Under the pieces are notes generated by a model. That model was given only the letters and a program-made list of their open reading frames with translations. It did not search any database and was not told where the DNA came from. A DNA stretch of 64,000 bases from a virus. Location: positions 15,038-79,037 of IMG/VR virus record IMGVR_UViG_3300020536_000010, one strand, 5' to 3'. The translations under genes and the position numbers were made by a program. This document shows positions 2,522 through 16,384 of this stretch, in pieces (the first letter of the stretch is position 1; each line of letters starts with the position of its first letter).

Positions 2522-4519
2522 ATGGCAACTAGAATGCAGCAACGCAGAGGAACTGCGGCACAATGGACAGCAGCAGACCCAGTATTGGGTGCTGGTGAAA
2601 TAGGTTTTGAAACTGACACTGGTAAATTTAAGATGGGTGATGGCACTAGCTCATGGACTGAGCTGTACTACTTCCTAGACTCAAATGACCTTGACCTAGG
2701 CGGAAGCCTTGATGATTATGTTCCTCTAACCCAGAAGGGTGCTAACAATGGTGTTGCCACACTTGACTCTGCTGGAAAAGTTCCTCTTACTCAGCTAGGA
2801 AATATCATTGACGGTGCTCCAGAGGCACTAAATACTCTTAATGAGCTTGCTGCAGCAATCTCAGACGATCCTGACTTCTATACTAATATTACTGACATAA
2901 CCTCAGATATTGCTGATTTAAACACATCTTATGGAGACCTGTTTACTTCTGTAGGTATCGTATCATCTGCTGTCAGTGATCTCACAACAGATTTGGGTAC
3001 AGCAGAAACAAATATTACAACATTAACAAATGACCTAAATACTTTAGAAACTACTGTATCTGGGGTTCAAGGCTCTTTAGCAACAGCAGAAACAGATATT
3101 GATAATCTTCAATCAGAGGTTTCTGGTCTAGAGACAACCGTAGGCAATCTAGAAACAGAAAAGGCTCCAACGGCTAGTCCAACGTTTAGTGGAACGGTAG
3201 TTCTTCCATCAACAACATCTATTGGCGATGTTAGCAATACAGAGATTTCTTATCTTAACGGAGTTACCTCTGATATTCAGACACAGTTAGATGGAAAGCT
3301 TGCTTCTTCTACAGCCTCTTCAACCTATGCCCCACTTTCTGGGCCAACTTTTACTGGAACAGTAACCCTTCCATCTACAACAAGCATTGGCTCTGTATCT
3401 GACACAGAGCTTGGATACTTGAATGGCGTTACATCAGATATTCAGACACAGCTTAATGCTAAGGCACCAACGGCTGATCCAACCTTTACAGGAACTGTTT
3501 CTGGTGTTACAGCAACACATGTCGGACTTGGCAACGTAGACAATACGTCTGATGCCAACAAGCCAGTTTCTACAGCTACTCAGACTGCTTTAGATGCAAA
3601 GCTAAGCCTTTCTGGTGGCACAATGACTGGTGCACTGACTCTGTCTGGTGCACCTACAGAGGCTAATCACGCTGCAACTAAAGCTTATGCAGACTCTATC
3701 TCTGAAGGTCTTCACGTTCACCCATCTTGTGTTGCTGCAACTACAGCAAATGTTAACCTATCAAATGCTCTTGAAAACGGAGACGTTCTTGATGGAGTCA
3801 CCCTTGTAACTGGCGATCGTGTTCTGGTTAAAAACCAAACAACAGCTAGCGAAAATGGTATTTATATTGTTCAGGCTTCTGGAGCTGCCCTACGGGCCTC
3901 TGATTTCAATGAGCCACTAGAAGTTGATGGCGGAGACTTTGTTTTCGTAACAGGCGGTACTGTTAATGACAATACTGGATGGGTTCAGACAGCTACTAAC
4001 GTAGTTACTATTGGCACTGACCCAATTACTTTTGTTCAGTTTGCTGGAGCTGGAACTATTACAGCTGGAACTAACGTAAGCGTAAATGGCTCAGAGATTT
4101 CTGTTGTAAACAACCCAACATTTTCTGGACTCGTTACAGCAGCAGCTGCTGGTGTTGCGTTCTCTGACGGAACTCAGACAAAAGAAGGTGTTCCATCACG
4201 TACAGCTATAACACAGGTTACTGCAGCATATAACTTGTCTACTGGTGGCCTTTCACTTAGAGATGGACTTGTTGAAGTATCTCACACTGGTGGTTCTGCA
4301 GTTGCAGTTACAATTCCAGCAGATTCTACTACAAACTTCCCAATTGGTACATCAATAGATGTTCTAAGAACAAATACTGGTGGTGTATCGATTGCTGGTG
4401 CTGCTGGCGTAACAGTTAATGCAACACCAGGCCTAAACCTCCGTGCTCAGTGGTCTTCTGTAACTCTCTTTAAGAGAGCTGCAAATACCTGGGTAGCATT
4501 CGGAGACCTTGCATCTTAA
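2522..4519 (+). CDS. Tail fibre protein (Mtd/hyaluronidase-type N-terminal domain, coiled coil, repeats)
   Basis: N-terminus RRGTAAQWTAADPVLGAGEIGFETDTGKFKMGDG is typical of Mtd_N-like fibre attachment domains. Also has an APEALNTLNELAAA motif, a heptad region and a duplicated PTFxGTVxLPSTTSIG..YLNGVTSDIQTQL repeat. Confidence 0.8.
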   Translation: MATRMQQRRGTAAQWTAADPVLGAGEIGFETDTGKFKMGDGTSSWTELYYFLDSNDLDLGGSLDDYVPLTQKGANNGVATLDSAGKVPLTQLGNIIDGAPEALNTLNELAAAISDDPDFYTNITDITSDIADLNTSYGDLFTSVGIVSSAVSDLTTDLGTAETNITTLTNDLNTLETTVSGVQGSLATAETDIDNLQSEVSGLETTVGNLETEKAPTASPTFSGTVVLPSTTSIGDVSNTEISYLNGVTSDIQTQLDGKLASSTASSTYAPLSGPTFTGTVTLPSTTSIGSVSDTELGYLNGVTSDIQTQLNAKAPTADPTFTGTVSGVTATHVGLGNVDNTSDANKPVSTATQTALDAKLSLSGGTMTGALTLSGAPTEANHAATKAYADSISEGLHVHPSCVAATTANVNLSNALENGDVLDGVTLVTGDRVLVKNQTTASENGIYIVQASGAALRASDFNEPLEVDGGDFVFVTGGTVNDNTGWVQTATNVVTIGTDPITFVQFAGAGTITAGTNVSVNGSEISVVNNPTFSGLVTAAAAGVAFSDGTQTKEGVPSRTAITQVTAAYNLSTGGLSLRDGLVEVSHTGGSAVAVTIPADSTTNFPIGTSIDVLRTNTGGVSIAGAAGVTVNATPGLNLRAQWSSVTLFKRAANTWVAFGDLAS

Positions 4520-4539: not shown

Positions 4540-5364
4540 ATGGCAGTAGGAAAAAGACCTGGTAGAAGGTCACAGGCATCAAACGACTTTCTAGAGCCAA
4601 AGGCACCAACAAGCGTATCTGCTACTAACGTTGGAACTGGGAGGGCATTTAATGATGGTGCTGCCACAGTTACTTTTTCTTTACCTGGTGATTCTCCAGC
4701 AGCTACTTCTTATACAGTAACAGCTACTGCTTCTGGTCAAACAACCAGGACTGCTAGCGGAGCTACATCACCATTAACAGTAACAGGTCTTGTTGGTGGA
4801 GTAACCTATACAGTTAGCGTTACTGCAACTAATAATGCTGGAACATCTGCCGCTTCTTCTTCAACCACTGTTGCCATTACTACAGTACCAGGAGCACCAG
4901 CTGCCCCGTCAGTTGCTTCAACTGTTATAAATCAAGACTCTATTTCTTGGTCTGCACCAAACACTGGTGGAAGTGCAATTACTGGATACCGTTGGGAAAG
5001 TAGCGACAATAAGTCAAACAACGTTGCTTCTAACGTTACATCCGCTACAGTAACACAAGAAGGTGGAACTTCTCAGACATATAAGGTTCGTGCAAGCAAT
5101 GCTAATGGAGACGGTGCATTTTCTCCTAATTCATCTAGCGTTACTACGTTTAGTCCTTTCTTCCCGCCATTCTTCCCATTCTTCCCGCCATTCTTCCCGC
5201 CGTTTTTCCCATTCTTCCCATTCTTTCCACCATTCTTCCCATTCTTCCCATTCTTCCCATTCTTCCCACCATATTTCCCATCGTTTGGACCATTTTTCCC
5301 ACCATTCTTCCCACCATTCTTCCCAAGCTTCCCAGGTGGAGCTGGAGGGTCTAAGTTCTTCTAA
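4540..5364 (+). CDS. Fibronectin type III-domain protein with C-terminal Phe/Pro polymer
   Basis: RBS AAGGAG. Two FN3-like units (P.APT.V...Y.VT...TGL..GVTYTVSVTATNNAG; PGAP..P...SWSAP.TGGS.ITGY...YKVRASNANG.G), then (FFP/FFPP)n and GGAGGSKFF. Confidence 0.85.
   Translation: MAVGKRPGRRSQASNDFLEPKAPTSVSATNVGTGRAFNDGAATVTFSLPGDSPAATSYTVTATASGQTTRTASGATSPLTVTGLVGGVTYTVSVTATNNAGTSAASSSTTVAITTVPGAPAAPSVASTVINQDSISWSAPNTGGSAITGYRWESSDNKSNNVASNVTSATVTQEGGTSQTYKVRASNANGDGAFSPNSSSVTTFSPFFPPFFPFFPPFFPPFFPFFPFFPPFFPFFPFFPFFPPYFPSFGPFFPPFFPPFFPSFPGGAGGSKFF
5149..5334 (+). repeat. Coding low-complexity repeat of TTC-TTC-CCA(-CCA) units encoding (FFP/FFPP)n
   Basis: 62 codons: 32 Phe, 25 Pro, 5 other (3 Ser, Tyr, Gly). 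Synonymous variants TTT/TTC and CCA/CCG/CCT are present. Confidence 0.95.
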
Positions 5365-5378
5365 GATAAGATAATAAA

Positions 5379-5411
5379 ACAAAGCCCAGAGATGTCGTCT
5401 CTGGGCTTTGT
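5379..5411 (+). terminator. Strong hairpin (terminator or mRNA-stabilising stem)
   Basis: Perfect 14-bp inverted repeat ACAAAGCCCAGAGA / TCTCTGGGCTTTGT with a 5-nt loop just after the FN3 gene; only a short U-tract. Confidence 0.7.
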
Positions 5412-5425: not shown

Positions 5426-6163
5426 ATGACAAATAATTGGCTAACAAAAGATAGATCAGAAACAGATTCAAATAGAATGCCAGAAAGATTTACACAGGCT
5501 GGAATTTTAGTTACTAATCCAGCATTGGGCATTAATATATACAACCAGGCAATCGATGAAAAAACTTGTGACTATATTATTGAAACTTTAGAAAATAACC
5601 TTAATGGGCAAACAAAATATTCTTGGCAGGGTGCAAAAGTAACTGAGGCAGACACTGTTCTTGAAGAGGCTCGAAAGTGCTTAGATTTTAAAGTAAGTTC
5701 AAATAATCTTGGGCCAAGAGATAACCATAATTCAAGCCTATATGACATGCACGAAATTGCTTTTCGTTCAATAAAGCCAAACGTTGATGACTATGGAATG
5801 TATTGGGGTGTTGGGGTAAATTTTTTTGAAGCATTTAATTTTGTCAAATATGATGGACCAGGAACACACTTCAAGATTCATGCTGATCATGGACCAGCAT
5901 ATGTTACAACCGTATCTGTAGTGGCATATGTTAATGATGACTATGAAGGCGGAGAGCTTTACTTTCCACGGTTTAATCTAAAGCTAAAGCCAAAAAGGGG
6001 AGATGTCATGGTTTTCCCATCAACATATATTTATGAGCATGCATCTAACGATATGATTAACGGAACAAAGTATTCTATCGTAATTATGACTGACTACAAT
6101 AATCGTGGTGGATTAAGAAACTTTAACTACCGTCAAGAAGATATGAATAAAATATATTATTAG
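5426..6163 (+). CDS. 2OG-Fe(II) oxygenase, prolyl-4-hydroxylase-like (no. 1)
   Basis: HAD...YVNDDYEGGELYF...H...GTKYS motifs. Start moved from 5408 to the leaderless ATG at 5426. Confidence 0.85.
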   Translation: MTNNWLTKDRSETDSNRMPERFTQAGILVTNPALGINIYNQAIDEKTCDYIIETLENNLNGQTKYSWQGAKVTEADTVLEEARKCLDFKVSSNNLGPRDNHNSSLYDMHEIAFRSIKPNVDDYGMYWGVGVNFFEAFNFVKYDGPGTHFKIHADHGPAYVTTVSVVAYVNDDYEGGELYFPRFNLKLKPKRGDVMVFPSTYIYEHASNDMINGTKYSIVIMTDYNNRGGLRNFNYRQEDMNKIYY

Positions 6164-6170
6164 GAAAATT

Positions 6171-6875
6171 ATGAGTGCACAAGAAGATTTACAAAAAAGA
6201 ATAGAAGATTTTTATAAAATTGATGAAATTACTTGGTCATCAATAGATGATCTAGGAAGCGGAATTTTTTTATTTAGGAATGTCCTGCCAACCTCAATGA
6301 ACATTATTGAAAGGCTAGAGTCAGTTTTGCAAGACCCCTCTAATCAATATAAATATGCAGAAGCAATGGTTGGCTATGGAATGAAAATCCCAGAATATAG
6401 AGATTGCTATGATTTTAAGTATAAAAAGACTGACATTCAACACGACAAAAGTGAAGCATCTATAAAGCTTCAACAGCTATGGGATGAGGTTTATTTTAGG
6501 CAGTTGCAAGCAGTAAAATACTATTGCAAGGTTCACAATATTGGAGAGCTTAGATATTGGGAGGCAATGAATTATGTAAAGTATGGTCCAGGACAGCACT
6601 TTCAAGAGCATTCAGACAATGGGTTTTCTTATAACTGTGTAGTTTCTTTGGTAGCATATCCAAATGATGATTATGAAGGCGGAGAGCTATTTTTTAGGCT
6701 CCAAAACTTAAATATTAAACCAAAGGCTGGAGACTTATTTGTATTTCCTTCAAACTTTATGTATCCACATAGAGCTATGCCAGTTACTAGTGGGACAAAG
6801 TATTCTATAGTTACAATGCTAGATTATTCGGACAAATATCATAGACCAGATTTTTATCAGGAGACTGGGAATTAA
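6171..6875 (+). CDS. 2OG-Fe(II) oxygenase, prolyl-4-hydroxylase-like (no. 2)
   Basis: HSD...NDDYEGGELFF...FPS...H...GTKYS. Confidence 0.85.
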   Translation: MSAQEDLQKRIEDFYKIDEITWSSIDDLGSGIFLFRNVLPTSMNIIERLESVLQDPSNQYKYAEAMVGYGMKIPEYRDCYDFKYKKTDIQHDKSEASIKLQQLWDEVYFRQLQAVKYYCKVHNIGELRYWEAMNYVKYGPGQHFQEHSDNGFSYNCVVSLVAYPNDDYEGGELFFRLQNLNIKPKAGDLFVFPSNFMYPHRAMPVTSGTKYSIVTMLDYSDKYHRPDFYQETGN

Positions 6876-7594
6876 TGGCTAAAGTTTTTGTATATACCTC
6901 TGGTCAGATGGCAAAAATAGACCAATTGCCACTGCATCGTGATTGGATGGACACTACGTTTGATAGACATGCCTATCACTGTTTTCCAGTATCATTATCT
7001 AATAGGCTAGGTTGGGGAATTTCATTTCCAGAAGATATAACTTTTATTTGGGATGGCATAAATGATTCAACTGGAGATCATGTTAAAATATTATCTGGTT
7101 CTAAATACGCTCATCCAAATCGTGGCAATAGAACGATTAGCTTTTACACAGATATCACATTTTTTGAAGAAAATGGTAAAAATATAACTCTTTTGACAAT
7201 GCCAGTGCCAAATCAATTTATCAGGGGTGCTCAATGTATGACAACCCTATTGAGCACATCTGTGCTTGCTAGTGATCTGCCAATTGCCTGGATGATAACA
7301 GAACCAAATATAGAAATAACAATTCCAGCTAATACTCCAGTAGCAGCAGTTTTGCCAGTATCATTAGCAGATATTCAATCACATGAGATAGAAGTTCGTA
7401 ATGGCAGGCCACCATATGAAGACAATGAGTGGAATAATAAAATGCGTGATCGTGGTATTGTAAGTCAAGAAAAAAATTCAAGAGGGGAGTGGACACATTT
7501 TTATAGGGATGCTATTGATCACAATGGAGATCCTATTGGACATCACGAAGCAAAAAAGATAGTTATGAAGGTTACAAATAATGCCAAAAATTAA
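6875..7594 (+). CDS. DUF6065-like protein
   Basis: RDWMD..FDRHAYHCFPVSLSNRLGW...F.WDG motif, as recalled for DUF6065. Start overlaps the upstream stop (TAATG). Confidence 0.6.
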   Translation: MAKVFVYTSGQMAKIDQLPLHRDWMDTTFDRHAYHCFPVSLSNRLGWGISFPEDITFIWDGINDSTGDHVKILSGSKYAHPNRGNRTISFYTDITFFEENGKNITLLTMPVPNQFIRGAQCMTTLLSTSVLASDLPIAWMITEPNIEITIPANTPVAAVLPVSLADIQSHEIEVRNGRPPYEDNEWNNKMRDRGIVSQEKNSRGEWTHFYRDAIDHNGDPIGHHEAKKIVMKVTNNAKN

Positions 7595-8306
7595 ATTTAT
7601 AACAAATAGGCCATGGCTTTCTGAAAAAGACCCATCTGCCCCAGAACCAGTTTCTAAAAGTCTTCCAGATTGGTATAAAAATGCAGATAGATATGCAAAA
7701 ATGTCTAATGGACAGCATTTGATTGGCCCAGATAAAGGAAAAATTCCAACATGGAAGGCATGTCCAGCCTTATACGATATATTTGTAACTGGGTATACTT
7801 ATAAAACCCCATGCGATATTGAGTTTTATCTTAATGATAATGATGAAATTTCTGTAAGAGTTTCTAATCAAAAGTACCATGATTTTGTTCATTTAAGACC
7901 ACCAATGCAGCAATTTGAGCATCCAAAAGGATATTATAAAAAGCATTTTGCCTGGTGGCCAGACTGGGCGGTAGCAGTTCCAGATGGATATAGTGTATTA
8001 TATTCTCAACCATTTGGAAGATATGATTTGCCATTTCTTACAACTAGCGGTATTGTAGATAATGACAAGGTAAACTTGCCAGGAACTTTTCCATTTTTTA
8101 TTCAAGAAGGATGGACTGGAGTCTTACCAGCAGGAACTGCATACGCACAAATGATTCCATTTAAAAGAGAAGACTGGGAATCAGAATATGAAATTAGTAC
8201 ATCTGAGACTATAATGAAAAAGAATTTTGAAAATGTCAAAAAATATAGGGTTCCAAATGGTGGAGTATACTTAAATGAGGTCTGGGAGAGAAGAAAATAT
8301 GAATAG
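7581..8306 (+). CDS. DUF6065-related conserved phage protein
   Basis: PEP..K.LPDWYK...TWKACP...D...GY...P.GYS.L...P......F....GIVD.D...GT..AQMIPFKREDW pattern. Confidence 0.55.
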   Translation: MPKIKFITNRPWLSEKDPSAPEPVSKSLPDWYKNADRYAKMSNGQHLIGPDKGKIPTWKACPALYDIFVTGYTYKTPCDIEFYLNDNDEISVRVSNQKYHDFVHLRPPMQQFEHPKGYYKKHFAWWPDWAVAVPDGYSVLYSQPFGRYDLPFLTTSGIVDNDKVNLPGTFPFFIQEGWTGVLPAGTAYAQMIPFKREDWESEYEISTSETIMKKNFENVKKYRVPNGGVYLNEVWERRKYE

Positions 8307-8321
8307 AAATAGGAGTTGTTT

Positions 8322-8990
8322 ATGGAAAATTTAGCAAATAATAGTGTGGTTGACAGAGTCTCTATAACTCCGTCTGGATTTTTTGGATCTTCCTCAGAAA
8401 ATATTGTAACATTAGAAGATTTTATGACTGAATATGAAATAACTAGATTAAATGATTTCATAAGGTCTAATGAAAATTGGGATATAACTGAAACTCACTA
8501 TAATGAAAATGGAACGGTTATTTATGATTCTGGATATTGGGCTAATCGTGTAGCGACTTATCCAACAATTCAAAAAACAAACCCAGAAATACCTGAAATT
8601 ATAGAAGGCATGGTTGCAAGATTAAAGATTGAAGTAGACAAGTTTTTTGGTGTAGATGCTTTGCCAACTAGCCCAGCCATGGTTAGATGGCTTCCTGGCC
8701 AATTTCAAATGCCGCATGCAGATAAAGAATTGCACACTGGTCCAGACGCTGGAAAGCCCAATGATTTTCCATACTATGACATTGCTGGACTTTTTTATGT
8801 TAATGATGACTATGAGGGGGGAGAGCTATACTTTCCAAACCAAGGAATTCAGTTTAAACCTAAAAGGGGAGCTGCCTACTTCTTCCCAGGAGATATGAAC
8901 TATATACATGGTGTAACAGAGATAAAGTCTGGAATCAGGTATACAGTTCCATTCTTTTGGACGATACTATCTCATAAGGGCAATTCTTAG
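8322..8990 (+). CDS. 2OG-Fe(II) oxygenase, prolyl-4-hydroxylase-like (no. 3)
   Basis: HAD...YVNDDYEGGELYF...HGV...GIRYT; RBS AGGAG before ATG 8322. Confidence 0.85.
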   Translation: MENLANNSVVDRVSITPSGFFGSSSENIVTLEDFMTEYEITRLNDFIRSNENWDITETHYNENGTVIYDSGYWANRVATYPTIQKTNPEIPEIIEGMVARLKIEVDKFFGVDALPTSPAMVRWLPGQFQMPHADKELHTGPDAGKPNDFPYYDIAGLFYVNDDYEGGELYFPNQGIQFKPKRGAAYFFPGDMNYIHGVTEIKSGIRYTVPFFWTILSHKGNS

Positions 8991-8994
8991 GCTA

Positions 8995-9003
8995 TGGTAT
9001 AAT
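8995..9003 (+). promoter_or_regulatory. Extended -10 promoter
   Basis: TGGTATAAT in the gap before 9023 (RBS GGAGAG). Confidence 0.6.
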
Positions 9004-9022
9004 CTTAATTGGAGAGTGGTTT

Positions 9023-9781
9023 ATGGCAAATTTAAACAATATGAATAGGTTAACTGACGACATTGTTATCTATGAAAATTTTATATCATCAGAAGAGTGT
9101 TCTAAAATTATTAAGCTTTTAGATAAGGTGGCAGAAAAAGGCACTATGACTTGGATGCCAATATCTTTTTATGAGTCGTATTCTTCAGTTTTGCCACAAG
9201 ACGATGATCCAGAAATTGAAGAAGAGGGGTTGCCAGGCAATATATTTTCTAGCATTAAAGATGGGTTTATTCAGGCTGTGGCATCCGTACATAGCATAGA
9301 TCCAAAAACTGTTGTGCAAATTGGGTATCACACTCAAAAGTGGGAGCCAGGGGCATATGCAAGAATACACTCAGACAATACAGATGAACATGGAAATACT
9401 GGCCCATTTGCAAGAAGTAGATATGCCGCATTTCTTTATTTAAACGATGATTTTTCTGGAGGACTATTAAAATTTCCAAAGCAAAATATAGAGATTTCTC
9501 CAAAAGTGGGAATGTTGGCTGCTTTTGACGGGGGCTTTAACAATATGCACGAAGTTACACTAATTGAGTCTGGAATCAGATATACAATAGGATCTTTTTG
9601 GGATGACCGTGAGGAAGATGCATATCCACAAGAAGTTAGAGATGCCTGGGCAGATGAAATGAAACAGATTAGAGAAAAGCAAGAAATCGAAAGAAAAGAA
9701 TGGCAAGATTTGCTTAAAGACGGGTATAAAATAGATATGGATGGCAATAAATATAAGGTGGGGCAAGACGACAATGATTAA
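9023..9781 (+). CDS. 2OG-Fe(II) oxygenase, prolyl-4-hydroxylase-like (no. 4)
   Basis: HSD...YLNDDFSGGLLKF...HEV...GIRYT. Confidence 0.85.
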   Translation: MANLNNMNRLTDDIVIYENFISSEECSKIIKLLDKVAEKGTMTWMPISFYESYSSVLPQDDDPEIEEEGLPGNIFSSIKDGFIQAVASVHSIDPKTVVQIGYHTQKWEPGAYARIHSDNTDEHGNTGPFARSRYAAFLYLNDDFSGGLLKFPKQNIEISPKVGMLAAFDGGFNNMHEVTLIESGIRYTIGSFWDDREEDAYPQEVRDAWADEMKQIREKQEIERKEWQDLLKDGYKIDMDGNKYKVGQDDND

Positions 9782-10433
9782 TCAGCTAAAAGAAATTTTA
9801 AAGAAAAATAATATATCATTTGAAGAAATTACGGATGAGCTAGTATCTATTGAAAATTTTTTAACAGATAATGACTTAGAGTTTCTTTTTAATCAAATAA
9901 ATTCCGCTTCACAGGAAGATTGGGAAGTGGAATATTTAGCTAACCTAAAAAGCTTTTGTTTAGAAAAATTTGGTAGAGATGATGTAGAAAATCTTGTGGC
10001 TGAAGGAAAGTTTGAAATAACACAAAATTGGTCTGACAAAAATCTAAATGTAAGTGAACACCCAGAATATCGTATTTTTTATAAAAGGCTTGCCTCTCTT
10101 GTAACAGAAGCAGACGAAACACTGATGCTTAGTGGTCTTGCTACAATACAAAGAATGCAGCCAGGGGTAGAGCTAAAATCACATACAGATCAGCATACAG
10201 ATCCATCAATACGTTATGCTGCAATTATTTATATTAATGATGATTATGAAAATGGTGAGCTGTTCTTTAGAAATCTTGGAATAAAGCTTAAGCCAAAACC
10301 AAAAACTCTTCTTATTTTTCCAGGAAATGAGCAATATGAGCACGGGGTTGACTTTGTTTCAGAAGGTCCAATAAGATATGTCTTAGTCGGATTTATTAAG
10401 GAAAAGGGTTTTTACGAAAGGAATAAATTCTAA
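9774..10433 (+). CDS. 2OG-Fe(II) oxygenase, prolyl-4-hydroxylase-like (no. 5)
   Basis: HTD...YINDDYENGELFF...HGV...IRY. Start chosen at ATG 9774, overlapping the previous stop. Confidence 0.85.
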   Translation: MINQLKEILKKNNISFEEITDELVSIENFLTDNDLEFLFNQINSASQEDWEVEYLANLKSFCLEKFGRDDVENLVAEGKFEITQNWSDKNLNVSEHPEYRIFYKRLASLVTEADETLMLSGLATIQRMQPGVELKSHTDQHTDPSIRYAAIIYINDDYENGELFFRNLGIKLKPKPKTLLIFPGNEQYEHGVDFVSEGPIRYVLVGFIKEKGFYERNKF

Positions 10434-10434
10434 A

Positions 10435-11139
10435 ATGAAAAAAAATATTTTAAATGATATGGTTTATTATTATGAGGATGCCGTTTTAAACTTTGACAAA
10501 GTTATGGAAACGATTAAAGAGCTAGACATAATTGGCCCATCCGATGCCGTTCCTTTATGGCAAGACTGGACTTCATCAAATGATAAAACATTTATATATG
10601 GACAAACCCAAACATTTGATATTAATCAAATTAATAAAATGGATGAGCCATATAAGAGTAAATTAGCATTTATATATAACAACATCATGGAATCGTTCTA
10701 CGAAGTCTCAAAAGATTATGCAAATTCTATAGGAGATTTAGATGAGCCAAGACTTTTCCCAGTATTTAATATTAAAAAGTATAATACTGGTTCTGCAATG
10801 GGTGCACACTATGACCAATTAGATGGGGATAAAACATTGCGGTATTCTTTGGTGATGTATCTTAATGATGATTGTGATGGTGGAGAAATTTCATTTAAGC
10901 TATCTGAATATGAAGATCACAATAAAGTTGCAAGTCCAGACTTAGATTATGCTGTTGCTGTAGAAAAAAATCAAATAGATTTTGGGGTAAAGCCAAGTGC
11001 TGGAAGTATTATAATTTTCCCATCTTCTGCACCATATTATCATATTGCTCACACAGTAAAATCTGGTTTTAAATATATGGTTCCAAGTCACTGGATTCAT
11101 AATGATATGAGTATGAGAGATGGCAGAAACAGCATATAA
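10435..11139 (+). CDS. 2OG-Fe(II) oxygenase, prolyl-4-hydroxylase-like (no. 6)
   Basis: HYD...YLNDDCDGGEISF...FPS...H...GFKY. Confidence 0.85.
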   Translation: MKKNILNDMVYYYEDAVLNFDKVMETIKELDIIGPSDAVPLWQDWTSSNDKTFIYGQTQTFDINQINKMDEPYKSKLAFIYNNIMESFYEVSKDYANSIGDLDEPRLFPVFNIKKYNTGSAMGAHYDQLDGDKTLRYSLVMYLNDDCDGGEISFKLSEYEDHNKVASPDLDYAVAVEKNQIDFGVKPSAGSIIIFPSSAPYYHIAHTVKSGFKYMVPSHWIHNDMSMRDGRNSI

Positions 11140-11980
11140 TTTTGATATTGAAAAAATACAAGATACGGTATGGGTTTTTAAAAAAGCAATTAAAAATCCA
11201 GAATCTTTTATAAAATATTTTGAAGAAAATAAAAAATGGAAAGATTGGTATACTCTTGGTAGGTCAGCCAATGGCACTCTTTTTTCAACAAGTTTTGATA
11301 CATTTCCAACAGAAGAAGAGTGGAAAAGGAAAAAGCATGAATCACCACATAATGACTTTAAAAGCCCAGGCTATTATGAAAATAAAATTAATGATTTATT
11401 TTATAATACCACAAGGCTATATGTTGAAGAAAACAATTTAGTATTTGATAACTGGATTTATAATGGTTGGGGTATAGCAAAGTATATCCCAGATCCACAG
11501 GATAATACAGAATATGCTATGTTTCATCATACAGACTTTCAAAGAGAATTGGCCTATAATCCTGGATCTAAGTTTGCCATTACTGTTGTTTTTTATCTTA
11601 ATGACAACTATGATGGCGGAGACGTAATGTTTAGGTTTTTAGATGATAATGATATGTCAATAATTAAAGAAGACTATTCTTATAAGCCACAGGCTGGAGA
11701 TATTGTTGTTTTTATGTCTGGCCATCCACATTATCATGGAGTAAAAAAAGTCAGCAATGGCGAAAAATATATTATAAGAGCATATTGGAAATATGACTAT
11801 CTTGGACATCCACTTTGGTTAAAATTGCAAGAAAAATATGGAGAAGATGTTTGGAGACAATTAGAAAAAGAGCGATTAAGATTTAGTAGAAATACAGATA
11901 ATATAAAAATGATTAATAATGTTCAGTTTTGGATAGAGTTCGAAGAATATTATAAAAAAGAACTGGGATCTTTGGATTAA
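11120..11980 (+). CDS. 2OG-Fe(II) oxygenase, prolyl-4-hydroxylase-like (no. 7)
   Basis: HTD...YLNDNYDGGDVMF...HGV...GEKY. Confidence 0.85.
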   Translation: MAETAYNFDIEKIQDTVWVFKKAIKNPESFIKYFEENKKWKDWYTLGRSANGTLFSTSFDTFPTEEEWKRKKHESPHNDFKSPGYYENKINDLFYNTTRLYVEENNLVFDNWIYNGWGIAKYIPDPQDNTEYAMFHHTDFQRELAYNPGSKFAITVVFYLNDNYDGGDVMFRFLDDNDMSIIKEDYSYKPQAGDIVVFMSGHPHYHGVKKVSNGEKYIIRAYWKYDYLGHPLWLKLQEKYGEDVWRQLEKERLRFSRNTDNIKMINNVQFWIEFEEYYKKELGSLD

Positions 11981-12648
11981 TGAAAACAGCAATAGTTACT
12001 GGTGCAAGCAAAGGCGTAGGTTATGCGACTGTAAAGCTTTTATCGGAAAATGGATATAGGGTTATAGCTGTTTCAAGAGACCTATCCAAGATTTCTAATC
12101 TGGAATCTGGCAATGTTGAAATATACAAATTAGACATAACAAGAAAAGACGAAATACTGGCATTTGCTGAGAAGTATAAAAATATTTCTCTAGATCTTCT
12201 TGTTAACAATGCAGGTGGTGGTTCTGGACCAACCAAAATTATTAATGAAACAATGGAAAATTTTAGAATAGCATATGATATTAATGTTGCTGGGCCAATG
12301 TATTTATCCCAACTTTTTGTTCCCTGCCTTCAAAAATCAGAGTCTCCAACAATAATCTTTGTGACATCTTTGTCTGGCAAGATTCCATATAGGAATGGCG
12401 GTAATTATACTAACGCAAAAAGAGGAGAAATGGCATTAGTTGATACAATGAGGATGGAGTTTCCAGAATATGGGATTAAGATTACAGAAATATGTCCTGG
12501 CACCATAGATACCCAAATTGAGAAAAAGAATCATGCCTTAACTGCAGAAGATATGGCAGAGGCTATTCGCTGGGTAGCCTCATTGCCAAAACATTTTAAT
12601 GTAAATCATCTAGAAGTTAGCCATATTTTAAATAGTAAGTATATGTAG
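11980..12648 (+). CDS. Short-chain dehydrogenase/reductase (classical SDR, YdfG-like)
   Basis: TGASKGVG Rossmann motif, NNAG, catalytic S and YTNAK (YxxxK), PG.IDT; translationally coupled to the oxygenase upstream. Confidence 0.9.
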   Translation: MKTAIVTGASKGVGYATVKLLSENGYRVIAVSRDLSKISNLESGNVEIYKLDITRKDEILAFAEKYKNISLDLLVNNAGGGSGPTKIINETMENFRIAYDINVAGPMYLSQLFVPCLQKSESPTIIFVTSLSGKIPYRNGGNYTNAKRGEMALVDTMRMEFPEYGIKITEICPGTIDTQIEKKNHALTAEDMAEAIRWVASLPKHFNVNHLEVSHILNSKYM

Positions 12649-12679: not shown

Positions 12680-15600
12680 ATGTCTACTCCATCTAGTTTG
12701 TATGCCGAAAAAATTTTTTCTGAGCATCCAATAGCGTTCTGGCCCCTTGACGACAAGGCAGATTATGTGTCGCTTATATCCGAAACAAATAGAGATTTGC
12801 GTTTATGGGATACAGACAACGGAACTGTCGAAAACATTACTTCTATATTAGACGAACCATTTTCAGATAGTTTTGTGTCTAGAGTTTCGGCATCATCAGC
12901 AACTGGAGATAATTTTTTTGTTTCTGCAGTTAGCCCAAATTTAATAAATTTTAATGTTTTAAATGAAGATCTTTCTACTTTTGCTATAGGTGCATTTGTT
13001 TATACTAGCAGCTCTTATATTTCTGGATTTGAAATTGGATATCAATATTTTGATGAATCTAGCGGAGAGTTGGTAGAAAAAACAAAATTTTATTCAACTG
13101 AAATAGTTAATAATTGGATTTTTATTTCAGAAACATTCAATATGCCAACAGACAATGTTTCAGCTAGGCTAGTAATTAAGGCTAAATTTTTTAATGGCGA
13201 TAGTCTTTCAAACTATAAATTTTTAGTTAATGGTATATCTTTTGGACAATGGTCTGAAGAGTTCAATGCCTCATCTTTAGGAATTACTCCAGTAGAATTG
13301 CCATCAAACATATTCAATGCTGAAAATATTTTTGGAATTGAGGCAAAAGCCTATGGGTTGCAGGACCTTGACGGCTATTATTTAGTTAGAAAAAATGCAT
13401 TATCTGCTAAAAATTCTGGAATCCCCATGGTTTTTGGGGCCTCAAATAGTACTATAATTCAACAAAGTGGTGGAGCAATTCCATCATTAATAATTCCTGG
13501 TCAAGGATTTTTAAATAATTCTGGCAAATATAAGGATTACACTTTTGAGTTTTGGACTAGAATTAATTGTAACTCAGTAGTAGAAAAAAGAATTTTTGGA
13601 AATATACGTGGAACAGATGGAGTTTATGTTCAGGGATCAACAATAATACTAAAGGTTGGAGATTACCTAATTAGGCACTATGTTGGAGAATGGTATAGGC
13701 CAATGCTAATTCAGATTAGGTATTCTACATCTTCGATTAGTTTATTTATTAATGGAGAACAGGTAGGTGAAACACTTATAAATGTTGATAATGTAGATTT
13801 CCCAGAAAAAAACCAAACAGCAGGAAGCATCATTTTAGATAATGATTGGCTAGGATTTTGGTCATATGACGATGTGGCCCCAATCGAGATTGATGGCATA
13901 GCTATTTATGGATATAGGGTTCCACTTCAGGTAGCTAAAAGAAGATTTGTTTATGGCCAAGGGGTTGAGTTTCCAGAAAATATTAATAATGCTTATAGTG
14001 GAAGTTCCGTCTTTATTGACTATCCATTTTCTAAGTATGCCAAAAACTATCAATATCCATCATTAGGGAAGTGGGTTCAGGGTGCCTATGACAACTTGGC
14101 TATTAATGGAAATGCGATTGAATTTCCACAATACTCTGCCCCAGAAGCGAAGTTTAGCAATAAAACAAGCTCTGAGTGGATTATAGATTTGGAAAATGCA
14201 CAAAATGAAATTAATGATAACTTTATTAAGTTTAGGCCAAATAGTAGTTGGGATTCAACCAATGGCCAGCTATTTTTTGAAAATTTTAATTTAGCTAATG
14301 AGCAGCTAAAAGCTTTTTATATTATTTGTAAAGAGATTTCAACGCCAACTACAGAACAAACGCTGATTGCAATTGAGAATAGGGCAACTGGAAATGTTTT
14401 CGAAATAACCCTAGACAGTGATAGCATTAACTATAAGTTGTGGGAAAATGGAAACTATTCATTATTATTATCAAAATCTAGACAATACTTAAATGGTGTT
14501 GGGGAAAAAGCAGTTATTGGAATAGATCTCCAAAAATTCTCCAGCTACTACGGTGAAAAGATCGCAGACTTTTTTGGAAAACTAACCACAATGTCTATTT
14601 ACGTTGGCTCAACTAAAAATTTATCAAATACATTTTTAGGTAATATATATGAAATTGGTTTTTGTTCATTAAAGAATTTATCTAAAATTTCTTCTATTTT
14701 TGCTGCCGATGGCCTAAGCTTTGCTGACACATTCATTGACGGCTCTGAGCTATATACAAATACGGCAGATGCTGGAGAAGACGTTCAAGAGTCTGCTATT
14801 TTTCAATTCTTATATGACGGTGGAACTCTTGGCCAATACTCATATTCTATTTTAGAAAATCACATACCTAGCTACGGAGTAATTGCAGGAGAAGATTTAT
14901 CTGGATTTGGGATATTGGTTGAGGCAGACTCATCTTGGCAAGATCAAATCCCTCTATCATTTTTTGCTAAAGAAACTACTGATTCACGTGGAGACTCAAG
15001 GCTTGATCTAGATTTTATCCAATTTAATATTAATTATCCAGCACCATCTATTTTTGTTCAGGAAACAGAAGAGGGTTCGTGGACATATGCAGAGCTACAG
15101 TCTGAATATGCCAATCCAATACAAAGAACCTATGATTCTTTAGATAATCAGCTTTTTACTGGTTTTCAAAATTATGAAGATTTAAAAAATAAATCTGTAA
15201 GCACCTATAAATACGACACCCTAAATTCTATAGTAAAAACATACATAACATTTCAATTGCTTGAAAATGGGGCTAATAGATCACTATCTACATTTACAAA
15301 TACAGAGCTTGCACCTAAAAATGGAATTGTTGTACCTGGGTCAAACTGGATAAACACAAAGTATGAGGTTGTTGATAATATGATAATTTATCCACCCCAG
15401 TCAATTTCCTTTAATAATCTTGCTATTGTTACTCATATTGAAATATCTTCTAGAAATATTAAAAATACTCCAATTTCTATTAAGTCCCTAGAGTATGCAT
15501 CCATGGCACTTTCTGACACCATGCCAACATCCATTGGGACTAGATTTGGTAATGACATTTATCCATATAGAAAAGAAGGGTTCTATCTTACATATAAAAA

Positions 15601-16384
15601 ACAAAATCCATTCTCTATTTATAAGGGAAGCACTCCCTATTTATATTTAACTAGAAATAGTGGAATAACCATAAGGGGCGGATATGACCCATTGATAAAT
15701 AGGGGTATTTCCATACCACTAAATAATTCAAAATCAGATAATTTTAAAGTTATAGCAATGCAAATGGCATTAAGGTTTGACGAAGACTTTTTTCCATATG
15801 GGGCAATGCAGCTTTTCGAGATTCAGAGTAAAAACTCTTACATTCGTGTATATGCTGCTGCAAGTGATCCATCTGGAAAACGTGCAAAACTATACGCTAT
15901 TAATTCTAGGGGAGAGTTAGAAAATGGAATAGCGTTTTACCTAAATGGAAAAATTGTAAAGGATCCAGTTTTAACCATAAAGGAGTGGGCAATGCTTGGT
16001 ATAAGATTTGCAAATATTCAAGAATTTTCTAATTTTGCTGGGGCACTTAGGCTAACCGCACCACTGACATATAATAATATTTCTTATTACAAATCAACTA
16101 ATCTTCAAGAGGTTCAAAATGAGATTACAAGGCCTTGGTTTAAGGTTAAAAACCTTGGCTCATTAACTCTAGATTGGGGCTTCTGGCCATCATATCTTTG
16201 GGATGGCGTTTTGTTTATAGCAAAAACTAGCTATTATGGAGTAGACCCATCAGACATATATAAGATATATACAGGAACAAATAAAATAATTATTGATGAT
16301 GAAATAGAGTCTGTGTTTGGAGATTACCAATATTCAGTCAAAGAAAACATAGAGTGGCGTTCTCAGGTATACCAGGCAGTATAA
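12680..16384 (+). CDS. Large virion structural protein, possibly with LamG/concanavalin-like domains
   Basis: 1234 aa, beta-rich. N-terminal PIAFWPLDD and YTFEFW...LFINGEQVG...IDGIAIY patterns are LamG-like. Lies next to the head genes. Confidence 0.55.
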   Translation: MSTPSSLYAEKIFSEHPIAFWPLDDKADYVSLISETNRDLRLWDTDNGTVENITSILDEPFSDSFVSRVSASSATGDNFFVSAVSPNLINFNVLNEDLSTFAIGAFVYTSSSYISGFEIGYQYFDESSGELVEKTKFYSTEIVNNWIFISETFNMPTDNVSARLVIKAKFFNGDSLSNYKFLVNGISFGQWSEEFNASSLGITPVELPSNIFNAENIFGIEAKAYGLQDLDGYYLVRKNALSAKNSGIPMVFGASNSTIIQQSGGAIPSLIIPGQGFLNNSGKYKDYTFEFWTRINCNSVVEKRIFGNIRGTDGVYVQGSTIILKVGDYLIRHYVGEWYRPMLIQIRYSTSSISLFINGEQVGETLINVDNVDFPEKNQTAGSIILDNDWLGFWSYDDVAPIEIDGIAIYGYRVPLQVAKRRFVYGQGVEFPENINNAYSGSSVFIDYPFSKYAKNYQYPSLGKWVQGAYDNLAINGNAIEFPQYSAPEAKFSNKTSSEWIIDLENAQNEINDNFIKFRPNSSWDSTNGQLFFENFNLANEQLKAFYIICKEISTPTTEQTLIAIENRATGNVFEITLDSDSINYKLWENGNYSLLLSKSRQYLNGVGEKAVIGIDLQKFSSYYGEKIADFFGKLTTMSIYVGSTKNLSNTFLGNIYEIGFCSLKNLSKISSIFAADGLSFADTFIDGSELYTNTADAGEDVQESAIFQFLYDGGTLGQYSYSILENHIPSYGVIAGEDLSGFGILVEADSSWQDQIPLSFFAKETTDSRGDSRLDLDFIQFNINYPAPSIFVQETEEGSWTYAELQSEYANPIQRTYDSLDNQLFTGFQNYEDLKNKSVSTYKYDTLNSIVKTYITFQLLENGANRSLSTFTNTELAPKNGIVVPGSNWINTKYEVVDNMIIYPPQSISFNNLAIVTHIEISSRNIKNTPISIKSLEYASMALSDTMPTSIGTRFGNDIYPYRKEGFYLTYKKQNPFSIYKGSTPYLYLTRNSGITIRGGYDPLINRGISIPLNNSKSDNFKVIAMQMALRFDEDFFPYGAMQLFEIQSKNSYIRVYAAASDPSGKRAKLYAINSRGELENGIAFYLNGKIVKDPVLTIKEWAMLGIRFANIQEFSNFAGALRLTAPLTYNNISYYKSTNLQEVQNEITRPWFKVKNLGSLTLDWGFWPSYLWDGVLFIAKTSYYGVDPSDIYKIYTGTNKIIIDDEIESVFGDYQYSVKENIEWRSQVYQAV

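What the first reader, a model, noticed from the sequence alone, without database searches (positions are those of the whole stretch)
5149..5364. The Phe/Pro tract is selected as protein and resembles self-assembling PFF/PPFF peptides
Seen: variation is mostly synonymous in the F/P frame (TTC/TTT, CCA/CCG), FFP and FFPP units alternate irregularly, and the tract ends in a GGAGG linker plus SKFF. It is therefore not a simple DNA microsatellite. It has no charged residue yet is too Pro-rich for a transmembrane helix. Established: Phe-Phe and Pro-Phe-Phe peptides self-assemble, Hyp-Phe-Phe assemblies are reported to be stiffer, and PPFF is the core motif of the cyclic peptides antamanide and cyclolinopeptide A. 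Inference: this may be an aromatic polyproline-like 'sticky' fibre or a multi-core precursor peptide, with length tunable by slippage of 9/12-nt units.
Basis: partly seen in the sequence, partly recalled or inferred. Interest (0 to 1): 0.7.

Follow-up and report, generated by a model that had tools for sequence, protein, structure and literature searches.

The report
Aromatic polyproline stalk on phage fibre protein
The Phe/Pro tract is a real, translated and strongly conserved aromatic proline-rich spacer at the end of a tail-fibre-associated protein of an uncultured lake phage, and in relatives it always travels with a cluster of prolyl-hydroxylase-like enzymes that may modify it.

Summary
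Window 4540-5364 (+) encodes a 274-aa protein: a conserved N-peptide, two FN3 domains, a 60-aa tract (nt 5155-5334; 31 Phe, 25 Pro) and the end GGAGGSKFF.

The tract is selected as protein. Against a colinear ortholog it shows 16 synonymous and 2 non-synonymous codon changes (pN/pS about 0.04, against 0.22 for FN3). Five further ortholog pairs agree. In 196 of 201 relatives a tract starts at the same place, is 15-187 aa long and follows the grammar (aromatic-Phe-Pro or Pro-Pro)n.

Its best-supported role is an extended, uncharged, proline-rich linker or stalk. In a paralog and in at least four other architectures it lies between folded domains, and at the same positions other homologs carry (TP)n or (PV)n linkers. 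In relatives it joins FN3 to swappable ends: bacterial intein-like Hint domains, Cys-rich caps or short tails.

All 51 FFP-type loci carry at least two 2OG oxygenases plus DUF6065 downstream. None of 37 loci of the sibling Phe-Gly type ('FG-type') has DUF6065. The adjacent oxygenase models as a protein prolyl 4-hydroxylase. Hydroxylation is inferred, not shown, and the association rests on only 2-3 independent contrasts.

The RiPP-precursor and microsatellite readings are not supported. The scan had already noted the downstream oxygenase cluster on this same DNA.

The parts
4540..5364 (+). Gene for the 274-aa FN3-FN3-(FFP)n protein, including the stop codon
   Evidence: ORF list; Pfam fn3 E 1.4e-12 and PHROG minor tail / tail fibre J hits; 831 homologs; AF2 model mean pLDDT 84
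4540..4605 (+). Conserved basic N-terminal peptide (MAxGKRxGRKSxxxNDFLEP), a possible docking peptide
   Evidence: Nearly invariant K5, G8, S11, N15, D16 and P20 in alignment A1; low-confidence short helix at aa 11-17; the docking role is inferred
4606..5148 (+). Two FN3 domains (about aa 23-113 and 120-203)
   Evidence: Pfam PF00041, two stretches; AF2 pLDDT 91-98 for aa 21-200 except about 88 at the interdomain junction (aa 121-130), all-beta
5155..5334 (+). Aromatic polyproline tract, 60 aa, (Phe/Tyr/Ser-Phe-Pro or Pro-Pro)n: the finding itself
   Evidence: pN/pS about 0.04; conserved position in 196/201 relatives; AF2 pLDDT 50-62 with no helix or strand
5335..5361 (+). Short C-terminal cap GGAGGSKFF
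   Evidence: close relatives end GGAGASKFF, GGAGNKKFF or GGKGFF, whereas L003 has a Cys-rich cap instead
5379..5411 (.). 15-bp G+C-rich hairpin just after the stop, terminator-like
2522..4519 (+). Upstream tail-fibre-like gene (Mtd_N N-terminus). A short fibre-like ORF ending in the homologous C-terminal domain precedes the paralogous FP gene
   Evidence: Pfam and PHROGs; conserved order fibA, 151-aa ORF, fibre, FP gene; shared C-terminal domain
5426..6163 (+). 2OG-Fe(II) oxygenase 1, with a protein prolyl 4-hydroxylase fold
   Evidence: PF13640; B. anthracis P4H 3ITQ/5HV0 at E 2.6e-6; AF2 pLDDT 87, and all 41 listed chains among the top 50 Foldseek PDB ranks are prolyl 4-hydroxylases; HxD...H and Lys intact
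6171..6875 (+). 2OG-Fe(II) oxygenase 2, P4H/LH3-like
   Evidence: PF13640 E 8.7e-15; PDB P4H at E 2.5e-5 and lysyl hydroxylase LH3
6875..7594 (+). DUF6065 protein, present in 51/51 FFP-type loci and 0/37 FG-type loci
   Evidence: PF19541 E 1.3e-22
7581..8306 (+). Conserved 241-aa protein with no Pfam match, part of the cassette; not detectably related to DUF6065
8316..11980 (+). Five further PF13640 oxygenase genes (8316-8990, 9023-9781, 9741-10433, 10435-11139, 11120-11980)
   Evidence: catalytic HxD...H and K/R kept in all; all 8 PF13640 genes of the 79-kb record lie right after the two FP-tract genes
11980..12648 (+). Short-chain dehydrogenase/reductase closing the cassette
   Evidence: PF00106 E 2.9e-38

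Best explanation
The tract is a translated low-complexity protein module with the grammar (aromatic-Phe-Pro or Pro-Pro)n. It acts as an extended, uncharged, semi-rigid proline-rich stalk or linker at the distal end of a tail-fibre-associated FN3 protein. The phage is an uncultured freshwater long-tailed phage whose portal resembles those of Streptomyces phages.

Shown: the tract is read in the F/P frame, is under stronger purifying selection than the FN3 domains, and is present at the same position in nearly all relatives with variable length. The same kind of tract lies between folded domains in other proteins of these phages, and there it is positionally interchangeable with classical (TP)n, (PV)n and (PVAPT)n linkers. 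In relatives it connects FN3 to exchangeable C-terminal ends: bacterial intein-like Hint domains, Cys-rich caps or short Gly/basic-aromatic tails. This copy has one of the short tails.

Inferred: as a polyproline-II-like rod of about 60 residues (roughly 19 nm if fully extended) it projects an aromatic, sticky end from the fibre towards the host envelope. Its prolines are hydroxylated by the co-encoded prolyl-4-hydroxylase-like oxygenases. I put the hydroxylation sub-claim alone at about 0.35-0.4.
For: Frame and selection. WIN against L002 gives 16 synonymous and 2 non-synonymous changes in the tract, pS 0.42 and pN 0.017, against FN3 pS 0.39 and pN 0.087. Five more colinear ortholog pairs have tract pN 0-0.021 at pS 0.05-0.35.

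Conservation. 196 of 201 family members have a tract starting at aa 190-210, of 15-187 aa (median 65). In 155 unique tracts, residue -1 to the Pro run is F in 86%, residue -2 is F in 74% and Y in 12.5%, Pro runs of 1 and 2 occur about equally (1551 and 1383), PPP is almost absent (6 of 2941), and D+E is 0.1%.

Linker role. The paralog in the same genome is PASTA, FFP tract, FN3 x2, FFP tract, Cys-rich cap. In its family the same positions hold (TP)n, (PVAPT)n or (VTPA)n, and L101/L102 have FFP and TP tracts abutting. An unbiased DNA-pattern sample of IMG/VR shows internal tracts in L192 (aa 779-835 of 960), L231, L249 and L251. AF2 gives confident FN3 domains and a tract at pLDDT 50-62 with no regular secondary structure.

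Swappable ends. There are 76 long C-domains, 40 Cys-rich caps and 57 short ends. The profile of the C-domains hits PDB 2LWY 'bacterial intein-like domain' at E 2.4e-6, plus mini-inteins.

Hydroxylase link. Seven PF13640 genes plus DUF6065 follow the gene. All 8 PF13640 genes of the record follow the two FP genes. The ox1 model matches only protein prolyl 4-hydroxylases among the listed top-50 ranks, including algal P4H bound to (Ser-Pro)5 and the PBCV-1 viral collagen P4H. 51 of 51 FFP-type loci have at least 2 oxygenases plus DUF6065, while 0 of 37 FG-type loci have DUF6065 and 32 of 37 have fewer than 2 oxygenases. Fibre, 'big' and portal genes are shared by both types.
Against: No experiment bears on conformation, location in the virion or modification.

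In this copy the tract is terminal, followed by only 9 residues, so 'linker' strictly applies to relatives.

The irregular mix of 3- and 4-residue units argues against a strictly periodic rod.

The association of tract type with the cassette reduces to 2 well-supported (3 at most) independent contrasts, and the sign test cannot reach significance. The two nested exceptions, L116 and L128, look like recombinants whose breakpoint lies at the FN3/tract junction. Tract and cassette may therefore co-vary through physical linkage alone.

Homologs that carry only PT or PV linkers also have, or lack, oxygenases without an obvious rule.

Some FFP tracts elsewhere have no oxygenase within 4 kb: L192, L231 and L249.
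Confidence: 0.6

Rival explanations
1. Self-assembling aromatic zipper. [quoted passage not shown] This is the first reader's 'sticky fibre'.
For: [quoted passage not shown] The tract has no charge. P4H-like enzymes are adjacent. Sibling clades carry cohesive-looking FG-type repeats.
Against: The peptide assemblies rely on free termini and head-to-tail hydrogen bonds, which a polymer lacks. In other proteins the tract lies between monomeric-looking domains and is interchangeable with non-sticky TP and PV linkers. No multimer prediction or experiment is available.
Confidence: 0.15
2. Direct host-envelope probe. The uncharged aromatic tail is itself the binding or inserting element, stacking on cell-wall glycans or partitioning into the membrane. 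Tract length sets the reach.
For: The gene follows a fibre gene, as adhesin genes do. The paralog carries a peptidoglycan-binding PASTA domain. This copy has almost no cap, so the tract is the distal end. Tract length varies 15-187 aa.
Against: There is no receptor or host information, and no WhiB or other host marker in the 79-kb record. Many relatives place a folded cap beyond the tract.
Confidence: 0.12
3. DNA-level role. The uniform TTCTTCCCR repeat is kept as a recombination joint for shuffling C-terminal modules and downstream cassettes. The peptide is a tolerated by-product.
For: Codon use reverses inside the same genes: TTC is 93% in FF-P units against 16% in the FN3 part. The same 29-nt pattern occurs in at least 120 stretches of viral-contig DNA, spanning several protein architectures among the 79 loci examined. 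C-terminal caps differ between close relatives. The recombinants L116 and L128 break at the FN3/tract junction.
Against: A pN/pS of about 0-0.1 with pS equal to the flanks shows that the amino-acid sequence itself is constrained. FG-type and TP-type tracts fill the same place with quite different DNA.
Confidence: 0.06
4. Multi-core precursor of PPFF-type cyclic or tailored peptides (RiPP-like), processed by the oxygenase cluster.
For: The PPFF motif occurs in antamanide and cyclolinopeptide A (PMC9266943). There are many tailoring-type oxygenases and an SDR downstream.
Against: There are no spacer or recognition sequences between units. The tract is fused to two FN3 domains in a virion gene block between fibre and portal genes. 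No protease, macrocyclase or transporter lies in the cluster. Homologs replace the tract with TP or FG repeats.
Confidence: 0.02
5. Neutral microsatellite or assembly artefact.
For: Tandem Repeats Finder reports tandem periods of 9, 12 and 21 nt. All three forward frames and one reverse frame are open across the tract. Logan contigs break inside it. One NCBI relative, P0001, is frameshifted after the first units.
Against: The tract shows strong purifying selection. It has the same frame and position in 196 of 201 relatives. An independently assembled colinear ortholog has the same length. Zero-mismatch tiling is seen in an independent run.
Confidence: 0.01

Closest known systems
Pro/Thr-rich (PT) and other proline-rich interdomain linkers of modular secreted and phage proteins
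   Same: Low-complexity sequence with Pro every 2-4 residues. It lies between folded modules, varies in length among homologs and is predicted non-globular. In the paralog family, FFP tracts and (TP)n, (PVAPT)n or (PV)n tracts occupy the same positions and even abut.
   Different: The residues between prolines are Phe or Tyr, not Thr, Ser, Ala or Val, so the chain is fully hydrophobic and aromatic. The grammar is strict (Phe before Pro in 86%, PPP avoided). In this gene the tract ends the protein.
Viral and algal protein prolyl 4-hydroxylases with proline-rich repeat substrates (PBCV-1 vCPH, PDB 5C5T; Chlamydomonas P4H with (Ser-Pro)5, PDB 3GZE; plant hydroxyproline-rich glycoproteins)
   Same: A virus encodes a P4H-fold enzyme with an intact HxD...H and Lys next to a protein with a long proline-rich repeat. 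The ox1 model matches these structures.
   Different: Hydroxyproline has not been demonstrated. There are seven divergent oxygenases plus DUF6065 rather than one enzyme. The repeat is Phe-Phe-Pro, not Ser-Pro, Pro-Ala-Pro-Lys or X-Pro-Gly. The virus is a bacteriophage.
Bacterial intein-like (BIL) / Hint autoprocessing domains (PDB 2LWY)
   Same: In relatives carrying the long C-domain, those with canonical forms have a Cys placed directly after the tract and a terminal His-Asn. The profile matches 2LWY at E 2.4e-6 and mini-inteins.
   Different: The window protein has no Hint domain. Several relatives have degenerate copies without the Cys or the His-Asn. Nothing follows the Hint domain except one Lys.
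Self-assembling Pro-Phe-Phe / Hyp-Phe-Phe tripeptides (PMC8113556)
   Same: The same three-residue motif. The hydroxylated version is plausible here because P4H-like genes are adjacent.
   Different: Those are free tripeptides that assemble through their termini. This is a covalent 60-residue chain with irregular FFP and FFPP units. Assembly has not been tested.
FG-repeat domains of nucleoporins
   Same: Uncharged Phe-based low-complexity repeats. The sibling clade of this family carries FSFxPFGxFG or (AFG)n tracts at the same position.
   Different: There is no homology. The window copy is Pro-rich with no FG units apart from one SFG. The context is a phage virion.

Membership tests
Fibronectin type III domain protein (PF00041) | Match to the fn3 profile above the gathering score, with a beta-sandwich fold | tested here: met
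   48.1 bits against a cut-off of 25, two stretches; AF2 all-beta, pLDDT 91-98 for aa 21-200 except about 88 at the interdomain junction
Proline-rich interdomain linker | Low-complexity, Pro-rich, predicted non-globular | tested here: met
   25 Pro in 60 aa; no helix or strand, pLDDT 50-62
Proline-rich interdomain linker | Lies between two folded domains | tested here: inconclusive
   Not so in the window copy, where only a 9-aa cap follows. It does lie between domains in the paralog and in L192, L231, L249, L251 and all Hint- or Cys-cap relatives.
Proline-rich interdomain linker | Length-variable and exchangeable with other linker types at the same position | tested here: met
   15-187 aa; (TP)n, (PVAPT)n or (PV)n at orthologous positions
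Substrate of a protein prolyl 4-hydroxylase | Co-encoded enzyme of the P4H structural class with intact Fe and 2OG ligands | tested here: met
Substrate of a protein prolyl 4-hydroxylase | Co-variation of substrate and enzyme across genomes | tested here: inconclusive
   51/51 against 0/37 for DUF6065, and 51/51 against 5/37 for at least 2 oxygenases. Only 2-3 independent contrasts exist and the genes are physically linked.
Substrate of a protein prolyl 4-hydroxylase | Hydroxyproline present in the mature protein | not testable with these tools
   Needs mass spectrometry
RiPP multi-core precursor (antamanide / cyclolinopeptide type) | Core peptides separated by recognition or cleavage sequences, with a dedicated protease or macrocyclase nearby | tested here: not met
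   Units are contiguous; the neighbours are oxygenases, DUF6065, an SDR and virion genes only
Hint / bacterial intein-like domain protein | Hint fold with an N-terminal Cys/Ser and a C-terminal His-Asn | tested here: not met
   Absent from the window protein, which ends 9 aa after the tract. Present in relatives.
Collagen-like triple helix | Gly at every third residue | tested here: not met
   One Gly in the 60-aa tract
Neutral DNA microsatellite / contingency repeat | Near-perfect DNA units, frame-changing length polymorphism, no protein-level constraint | tested here: not met
   73-83% unit identity; pN/pS about 0.04; only an in-frame CCA variant was seen

The most novel reading that the evidence does not exclude
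A bacteriophage carries its own multi-enzyme prolyl-hydroxylase cassette (at least two P4H-fold oxygenases plus DUF6065, up to eight oxygenases). The cassette converts the (Phe-Phe-Pro)n tail of a fibre-tip protein into a hydroxyproline-aromatic polymer. This would be a stiff, hydrogen-bonded 'Hyp-Phe-Phe' rod used to reach or grip the host envelope, and the first hydroxyproline-based structural material described in a phage virion. In relatives, the C-terminal intein-like domain would additionally activate the end of this rod as a thioester for cleavage or ligation.
Probability: 0.25. Interest if true: 0.8.

Novelty: new variant of a known kind. Interest (0 to 1): 0.6.

Why it matters
Proline-rich linkers are usually hydrophilic. 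A strictly conserved aromatic version, present in hundreds of uncultured lake phages, is a new sequence class for extended protein spacers. [quoted passage not shown]

Phage genomes are known to carry many 2OG-Fe(II) oxygenases of unknown function. Here a large cassette of them co-varies with one candidate substrate encoded next door. That makes the question 'what do phage 2OG oxygenases hydroxylate?' directly testable by co-expression and mass spectrometry.

The family also shows module swapping at the tract (Hint, Cys-rich or short ends). This is relevant to how receptor-binding proteins of phages diversify.

Tried and rejected
- Megablast and tblastn of the gene against 50,697 GenBank phage records found no match. 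The low-complexity filter and the exclusion of close records may contribute.
- A scan of 185,579 bacterial and archaeal genomes gave 600 pattern matches but no relative, so there is no prophage clue to the host.
- A WhiB search of the 79-kb record found nothing. The host remains unknown. The only hint is a portal 47% identical to Streptomyces phage portals.
- A tract-only protein search among longer proteins gave 2,492 word-sharing candidates, none scored, probably because of composition correction.
- An ESM Atlas look-up of the tract gave no usable hit.
- Literature searches for FFP, PFF or Phe-Pro repeats and for phage prolyl hydroxylases acting on fibres found nothing relevant.
- DUF6065 against PDB, and NCBIfam on the cassette, gave nothing informative. 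The 241-aa neighbour is not detectably related to DUF6065.
The context of FG-type relatives was obtained with the search for related loci instead.
- T-run avoidance at the codon-pair level does not explain the TTC bias: TTT-TTT was observed 11 times against 5.3 expected.
- The read-laying run used Logan contigs only, so read-level length polymorphism could not be measured. RNA contigs covering part of the tract (X18) may be DNA carry-over.
Full report
**What is there.** Window 4540-5364 (+) is a 274-codon ORF. Its product has a conserved basic N-terminal peptide and two FN3 domains (Pfam PF00041, E 1.4e-12; PHROG minor-tail and fibre-J matches). From aa 206 to 265 (nt 5155-5334) it carries a tract of 31 Phe, 25 Pro, 2 Ser, 1 Tyr and 1 Gly, built of FFP and FFPP units. 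The protein ends GGAGGSKFF. A 15-bp hairpin follows the stop. Phe and Pro are each about 4% of the window's long ORFs, so the tract is far beyond chance. Tandem Repeats Finder reports imperfect 9, 12 and 21-nt periods. The finding's coordinates and description are correct.

**The genome.** The record is a 79-kb IMG/VR phage contig, about 70% complete. All genes lie on one strand. It has a portal, a protease, a 2,995-aa tape measure and similar virion genes. The portal is 47% identical to portals of about 130-kb Streptomyces phages. Near-identical DNA is held by many lake and freshwater metagenomes.

**Is it selected as protein?** Yes.
- Within the tract, 10 codon variants are synonymous and 4 are not. 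About 20-30% synonymous is expected from mutational opportunity (P 6e-5 to 1.4e-3).
- The colinear ortholog in L002 was assembled from another sample and has the same length. It differs in the tract by 16 synonymous and 2 non-synonymous codons (pS 0.42, pN 0.017). The FN3 part has pS 0.39 and pN 0.087.
- Five further colinear ortholog pairs give tract pN 0-0.021 at pS 0.05-0.35.
- The tract is therefore as old as its flanks and more constrained than the folded domains.
- Among 201 family members (80 loci, 120 database proteins and the window), 196 have an F/P tract starting at aa 190-210, directly after the second FN3. Lengths run from 15 to 187 aa. The five apparent exceptions are three FG-type variants, a 153-aa fragment, and L039, which has a Hint-like C-terminal end but was not examined further.
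- One NCBI fragment (P0001) is frameshifted after the first units.
- The grammar in 155 unique tracts is strict. Two non-Pro residues are followed by one or two Pro. The residue before Pro is Phe in 86%. The one before that is Phe in 74% or Tyr in 12.5%. PPP occurs 6 times in 2,941 runs. Acidic residues make up 0.1%.

**Is it real DNA?** An independent lake run (X5) tiles the tract with four overlapping zero-mismatch contig pieces at the depth of the flanks. Three runs also hold an in-frame CCA insertion variant behind 5256. No single contig bridges the repeat, and these are contigs rather than reads.

**What does it do? Comparative anatomy.**
- The same genome has a second FP gene, 5 kb upstream of the window. 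Its product reads PASTA domain, FFP tract, two FN3, FFP tract, Cys-rich cap.
- In that paralog's family, the positions occupied by FFP tracts hold (TP)n, (PVAPT)n, (VTPA)n or PPV-type tracts in other homologs. In L101 and L102, FFP and TP tracts abut.
- An unbiased scan of IMG/VR for DNA encoding FFPPFFPFFP returned at least 120 stretches, of which 79 loci were examined. There were 55 FN3-family genes, 15 genes truncated at the 5' end, 2 PASTA-family genes and 7 other proteins. In four of the seven others that were inspected, the tract is internal: L192 aa 779-835 of 960, L231, L249, and L251 with two tracts and then a Hint domain.
- AlphaFold2 with a 45-sequence alignment gives FN3 domains at pLDDT 91-98 apart from the junction between them. 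The tract comes out as a coil at pLDDT 50-62.
- I therefore read the tract as an aromatic variant of the proline-rich interdomain linker: an extended, probably PPII-like stalk.

**What lies beyond the tract.** In the FN3 family, what follows the tract is exchangeable: 76 long domains, 40 Cys-rich caps, 57 short ends and 23 others. Close relatives of the window gene differ here. L001 and L002 have ends of the GGAG..KFF type, while L003 has a Cys-rich cap. The long domain is a bacterial intein-like Hint domain. A profile of 11 copies hits PDB 2LWY at E 2.4e-6, plus mini-inteins, and Pfam Intein_splicing and PT-HINT give sub-threshold matches. Canonical copies place a Cys directly after the tract and end ...VHNK. 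Others have lost both. The window protein has no such domain.

**The oxygenase cassette.**
- Downstream lie seven PF13640 2OG-Fe(II) oxygenases, a DUF6065 protein, an unannotated 241-aa protein and an SDR.
- All seven oxygenases keep HxD...H and the Lys or Arg.
- All eight PF13640 genes of the record lie right after the two FP genes.
- By sequence, the nearest solved relatives of the two closest oxygenases are Bacillus anthracis prolyl 4-hydroxylase (both) and, for oxygenase 2 only, collagen lysyl hydroxylase LH3.
- An AF2 model of oxygenase 1 (pLDDT 87) matches only protein prolyl 4-hydroxylases among the chains listed in the top 50 Foldseek ranks. These include PHD2, Chlamydomonas P4H with a (Ser-Pro)5 substrate, Pseudomonas PPHD, the PBCV-1 viral collagen P4H and human C-P4H-II.
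- Gene order (fibre A, 151-aa ORF, fibre, FP gene, cassette, 1,234-aa protein, portal) is conserved in the lineage.

**Co-variation with tract type.** A sibling group carries Phe-Gly type tracts at the same position, called FG-type here: FSFxPFGxFG, (AFG)n, FTPYAFTPY, or FG plus (PV)n. Among 88 unique loci with enough downstream sequence, 51 of 51 FFP-type loci have at least 2 oxygenases plus DUF6065. Among the 37 FG-type loci, none has DUF6065 and 32 have fewer than 2 oxygenases. The unlabelled ORFs downstream of FG-type genes have no 2OG Pfam match. The fibre, 'big' and portal genes are common to both types, so the tract is the obvious covariate of the cassette.

**Caveats on that association.** On the FN3 tree the FFP type is almost one clade, with two nested FG-type exceptions (L116, L128) that both lack the cassette. 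This gives only 2-3 independent contrasts, too few for significance. Those two loci look like recombinants. Their upstream fibre is closest to FFP-type phages and their downstream 'big' gene to FG-type phages. The tract and the cassette may therefore simply be linked. Hydroxylation of the tract is thus a well-motivated inference, which I put at about 0.35-0.4. It is not a result.

**Rivals.**
[quoted passage not shown] It is less favoured because the tract is interchangeable with non-sticky linkers.
- *Direct adhesion or insertion into the host envelope.* This is compatible with the gene's position after a fibre gene and with the PASTA paralog.
- *RiPP precursor.* This reading fails its defining features.
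- *Neutral microsatellite or artefact.* This reading is refuted.
- *DNA-level recombination joint.* This role may coexist with the protein role. Codon use flips inside the same genes: TTC is 93% in FF-P units against 16% in the FN3 part, and CCG is 19% against 3%.

**Known or new?** No description of FFP repeats was found in the paper library. There are no relatives in GenBank phages by BLAST and none in 185,579 prokaryotic genomes. The closest known kinds are proline-rich (PT) linkers, for role, and viral or algal P4H with proline-rich substrates, for the possible modification. I class this as a new variant of a known kind. It has an open and testable possibility of a phage hydroxyproline system.

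Earlier first-reader notes of this scan had already pointed to the downstream oxygenase cluster and to the two parallel cassettes on this same genome. Both were checked here and hold.

Noticed in passing
window 5155-5334 and FFP tracts of 69 related genes (L001-L181): Codon usage reverses inside one gene. Phe is 84% TTT in the FN3 part but 93% TTC in FF-P units. The Pro after FF ends in a purine in 91% of cases (CCA 72%, CCG 19%), against 69% in the FN3 part. The cause is unknown; candidates are avoidance of T or pyrimidine runs, decoding speed, and repeat ancestry.
   Followed up: partly
L011:6796-7296, L025:6778-7266, L052:2848-3339 and others: The long C-terminal domain found beyond the tract in 76 of 201 relatives is a bacterial intein-like Hint domain, judged from a profile of 11 copies. 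Canonical copies have a Cys right after the tract and end VHNK. Other copies (L036, L053, L056, L054) have lost both the Cys and the His-Asn.
   Followed up: partly
L106-L176 (for example L106:6808-7578, L132:7995-9332): A sibling clade carries Phe-Gly repeats instead of FFP at the same position, reminiscent of nucleoporin FG repeats: FSFxPFGxFG, up to about 25 copies of AFG, FTPYAFTPY, or FG plus (PV)n. These loci lack DUF6065 and mostly lack the oxygenases.
   Followed up: partly
G000:C1:9481-10665 (L082:643-1830), 5 kb upstream of the window: A paralogous FP-tract protein reads PASTA, FFP, FN3 x2, FFP, Cys-rich cap. It is preceded by a fibre-like ORF ending in the same C-terminal domain as window 2522-4519. 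It is followed by a 71-aa ORF, a DUF6171-like small Cys protein and a P4H-like oxygenase.
   Followed up: partly
L116 and L128: These are apparent recombinants. The fibre and FN3 part are closest to FFP-type phages. The tract, the short downstream region and the 1,230-aa protein are closest to FG-type phages. The breakpoint lies at the FN3/tract junction.
   Followed up: partly
window 5256: An in-frame CCA (Pro) insertion variant, turning FFP into FFPP, is present in contigs of three lake and freshwater metagenome runs (X5, X7, X12).
   Followed up: no
P0001 (NCBI, 1,027-nt contig): This is a 79%-identical relative whose tract is frameshifted after the first units. Either a sequencing or assembly error or a pseudogene would explain it.
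   Followed up: no
C-termini of FP and paralog proteins (for example L091, L087, L095, L098): A recurrent small Cys-rich C-terminal module (motif P-x-P-E-C-E-C-x-D-G-x-W-x-C and variants such as CPECTKGCPC or GGCPPRC) caps many tracts of both families.
   Followed up: no
L128:9707-10504: A weak sulfotransferase-family match (PF03567, E 1.3e-4) lies downstream of an FG-type gene, where FFP-type loci carry oxygenases.
   Followed up: no
window 12680-16384: A conserved 1,234-aa protein between the cassette and the portal has no Pfam or PHROG match.
   Followed up: no
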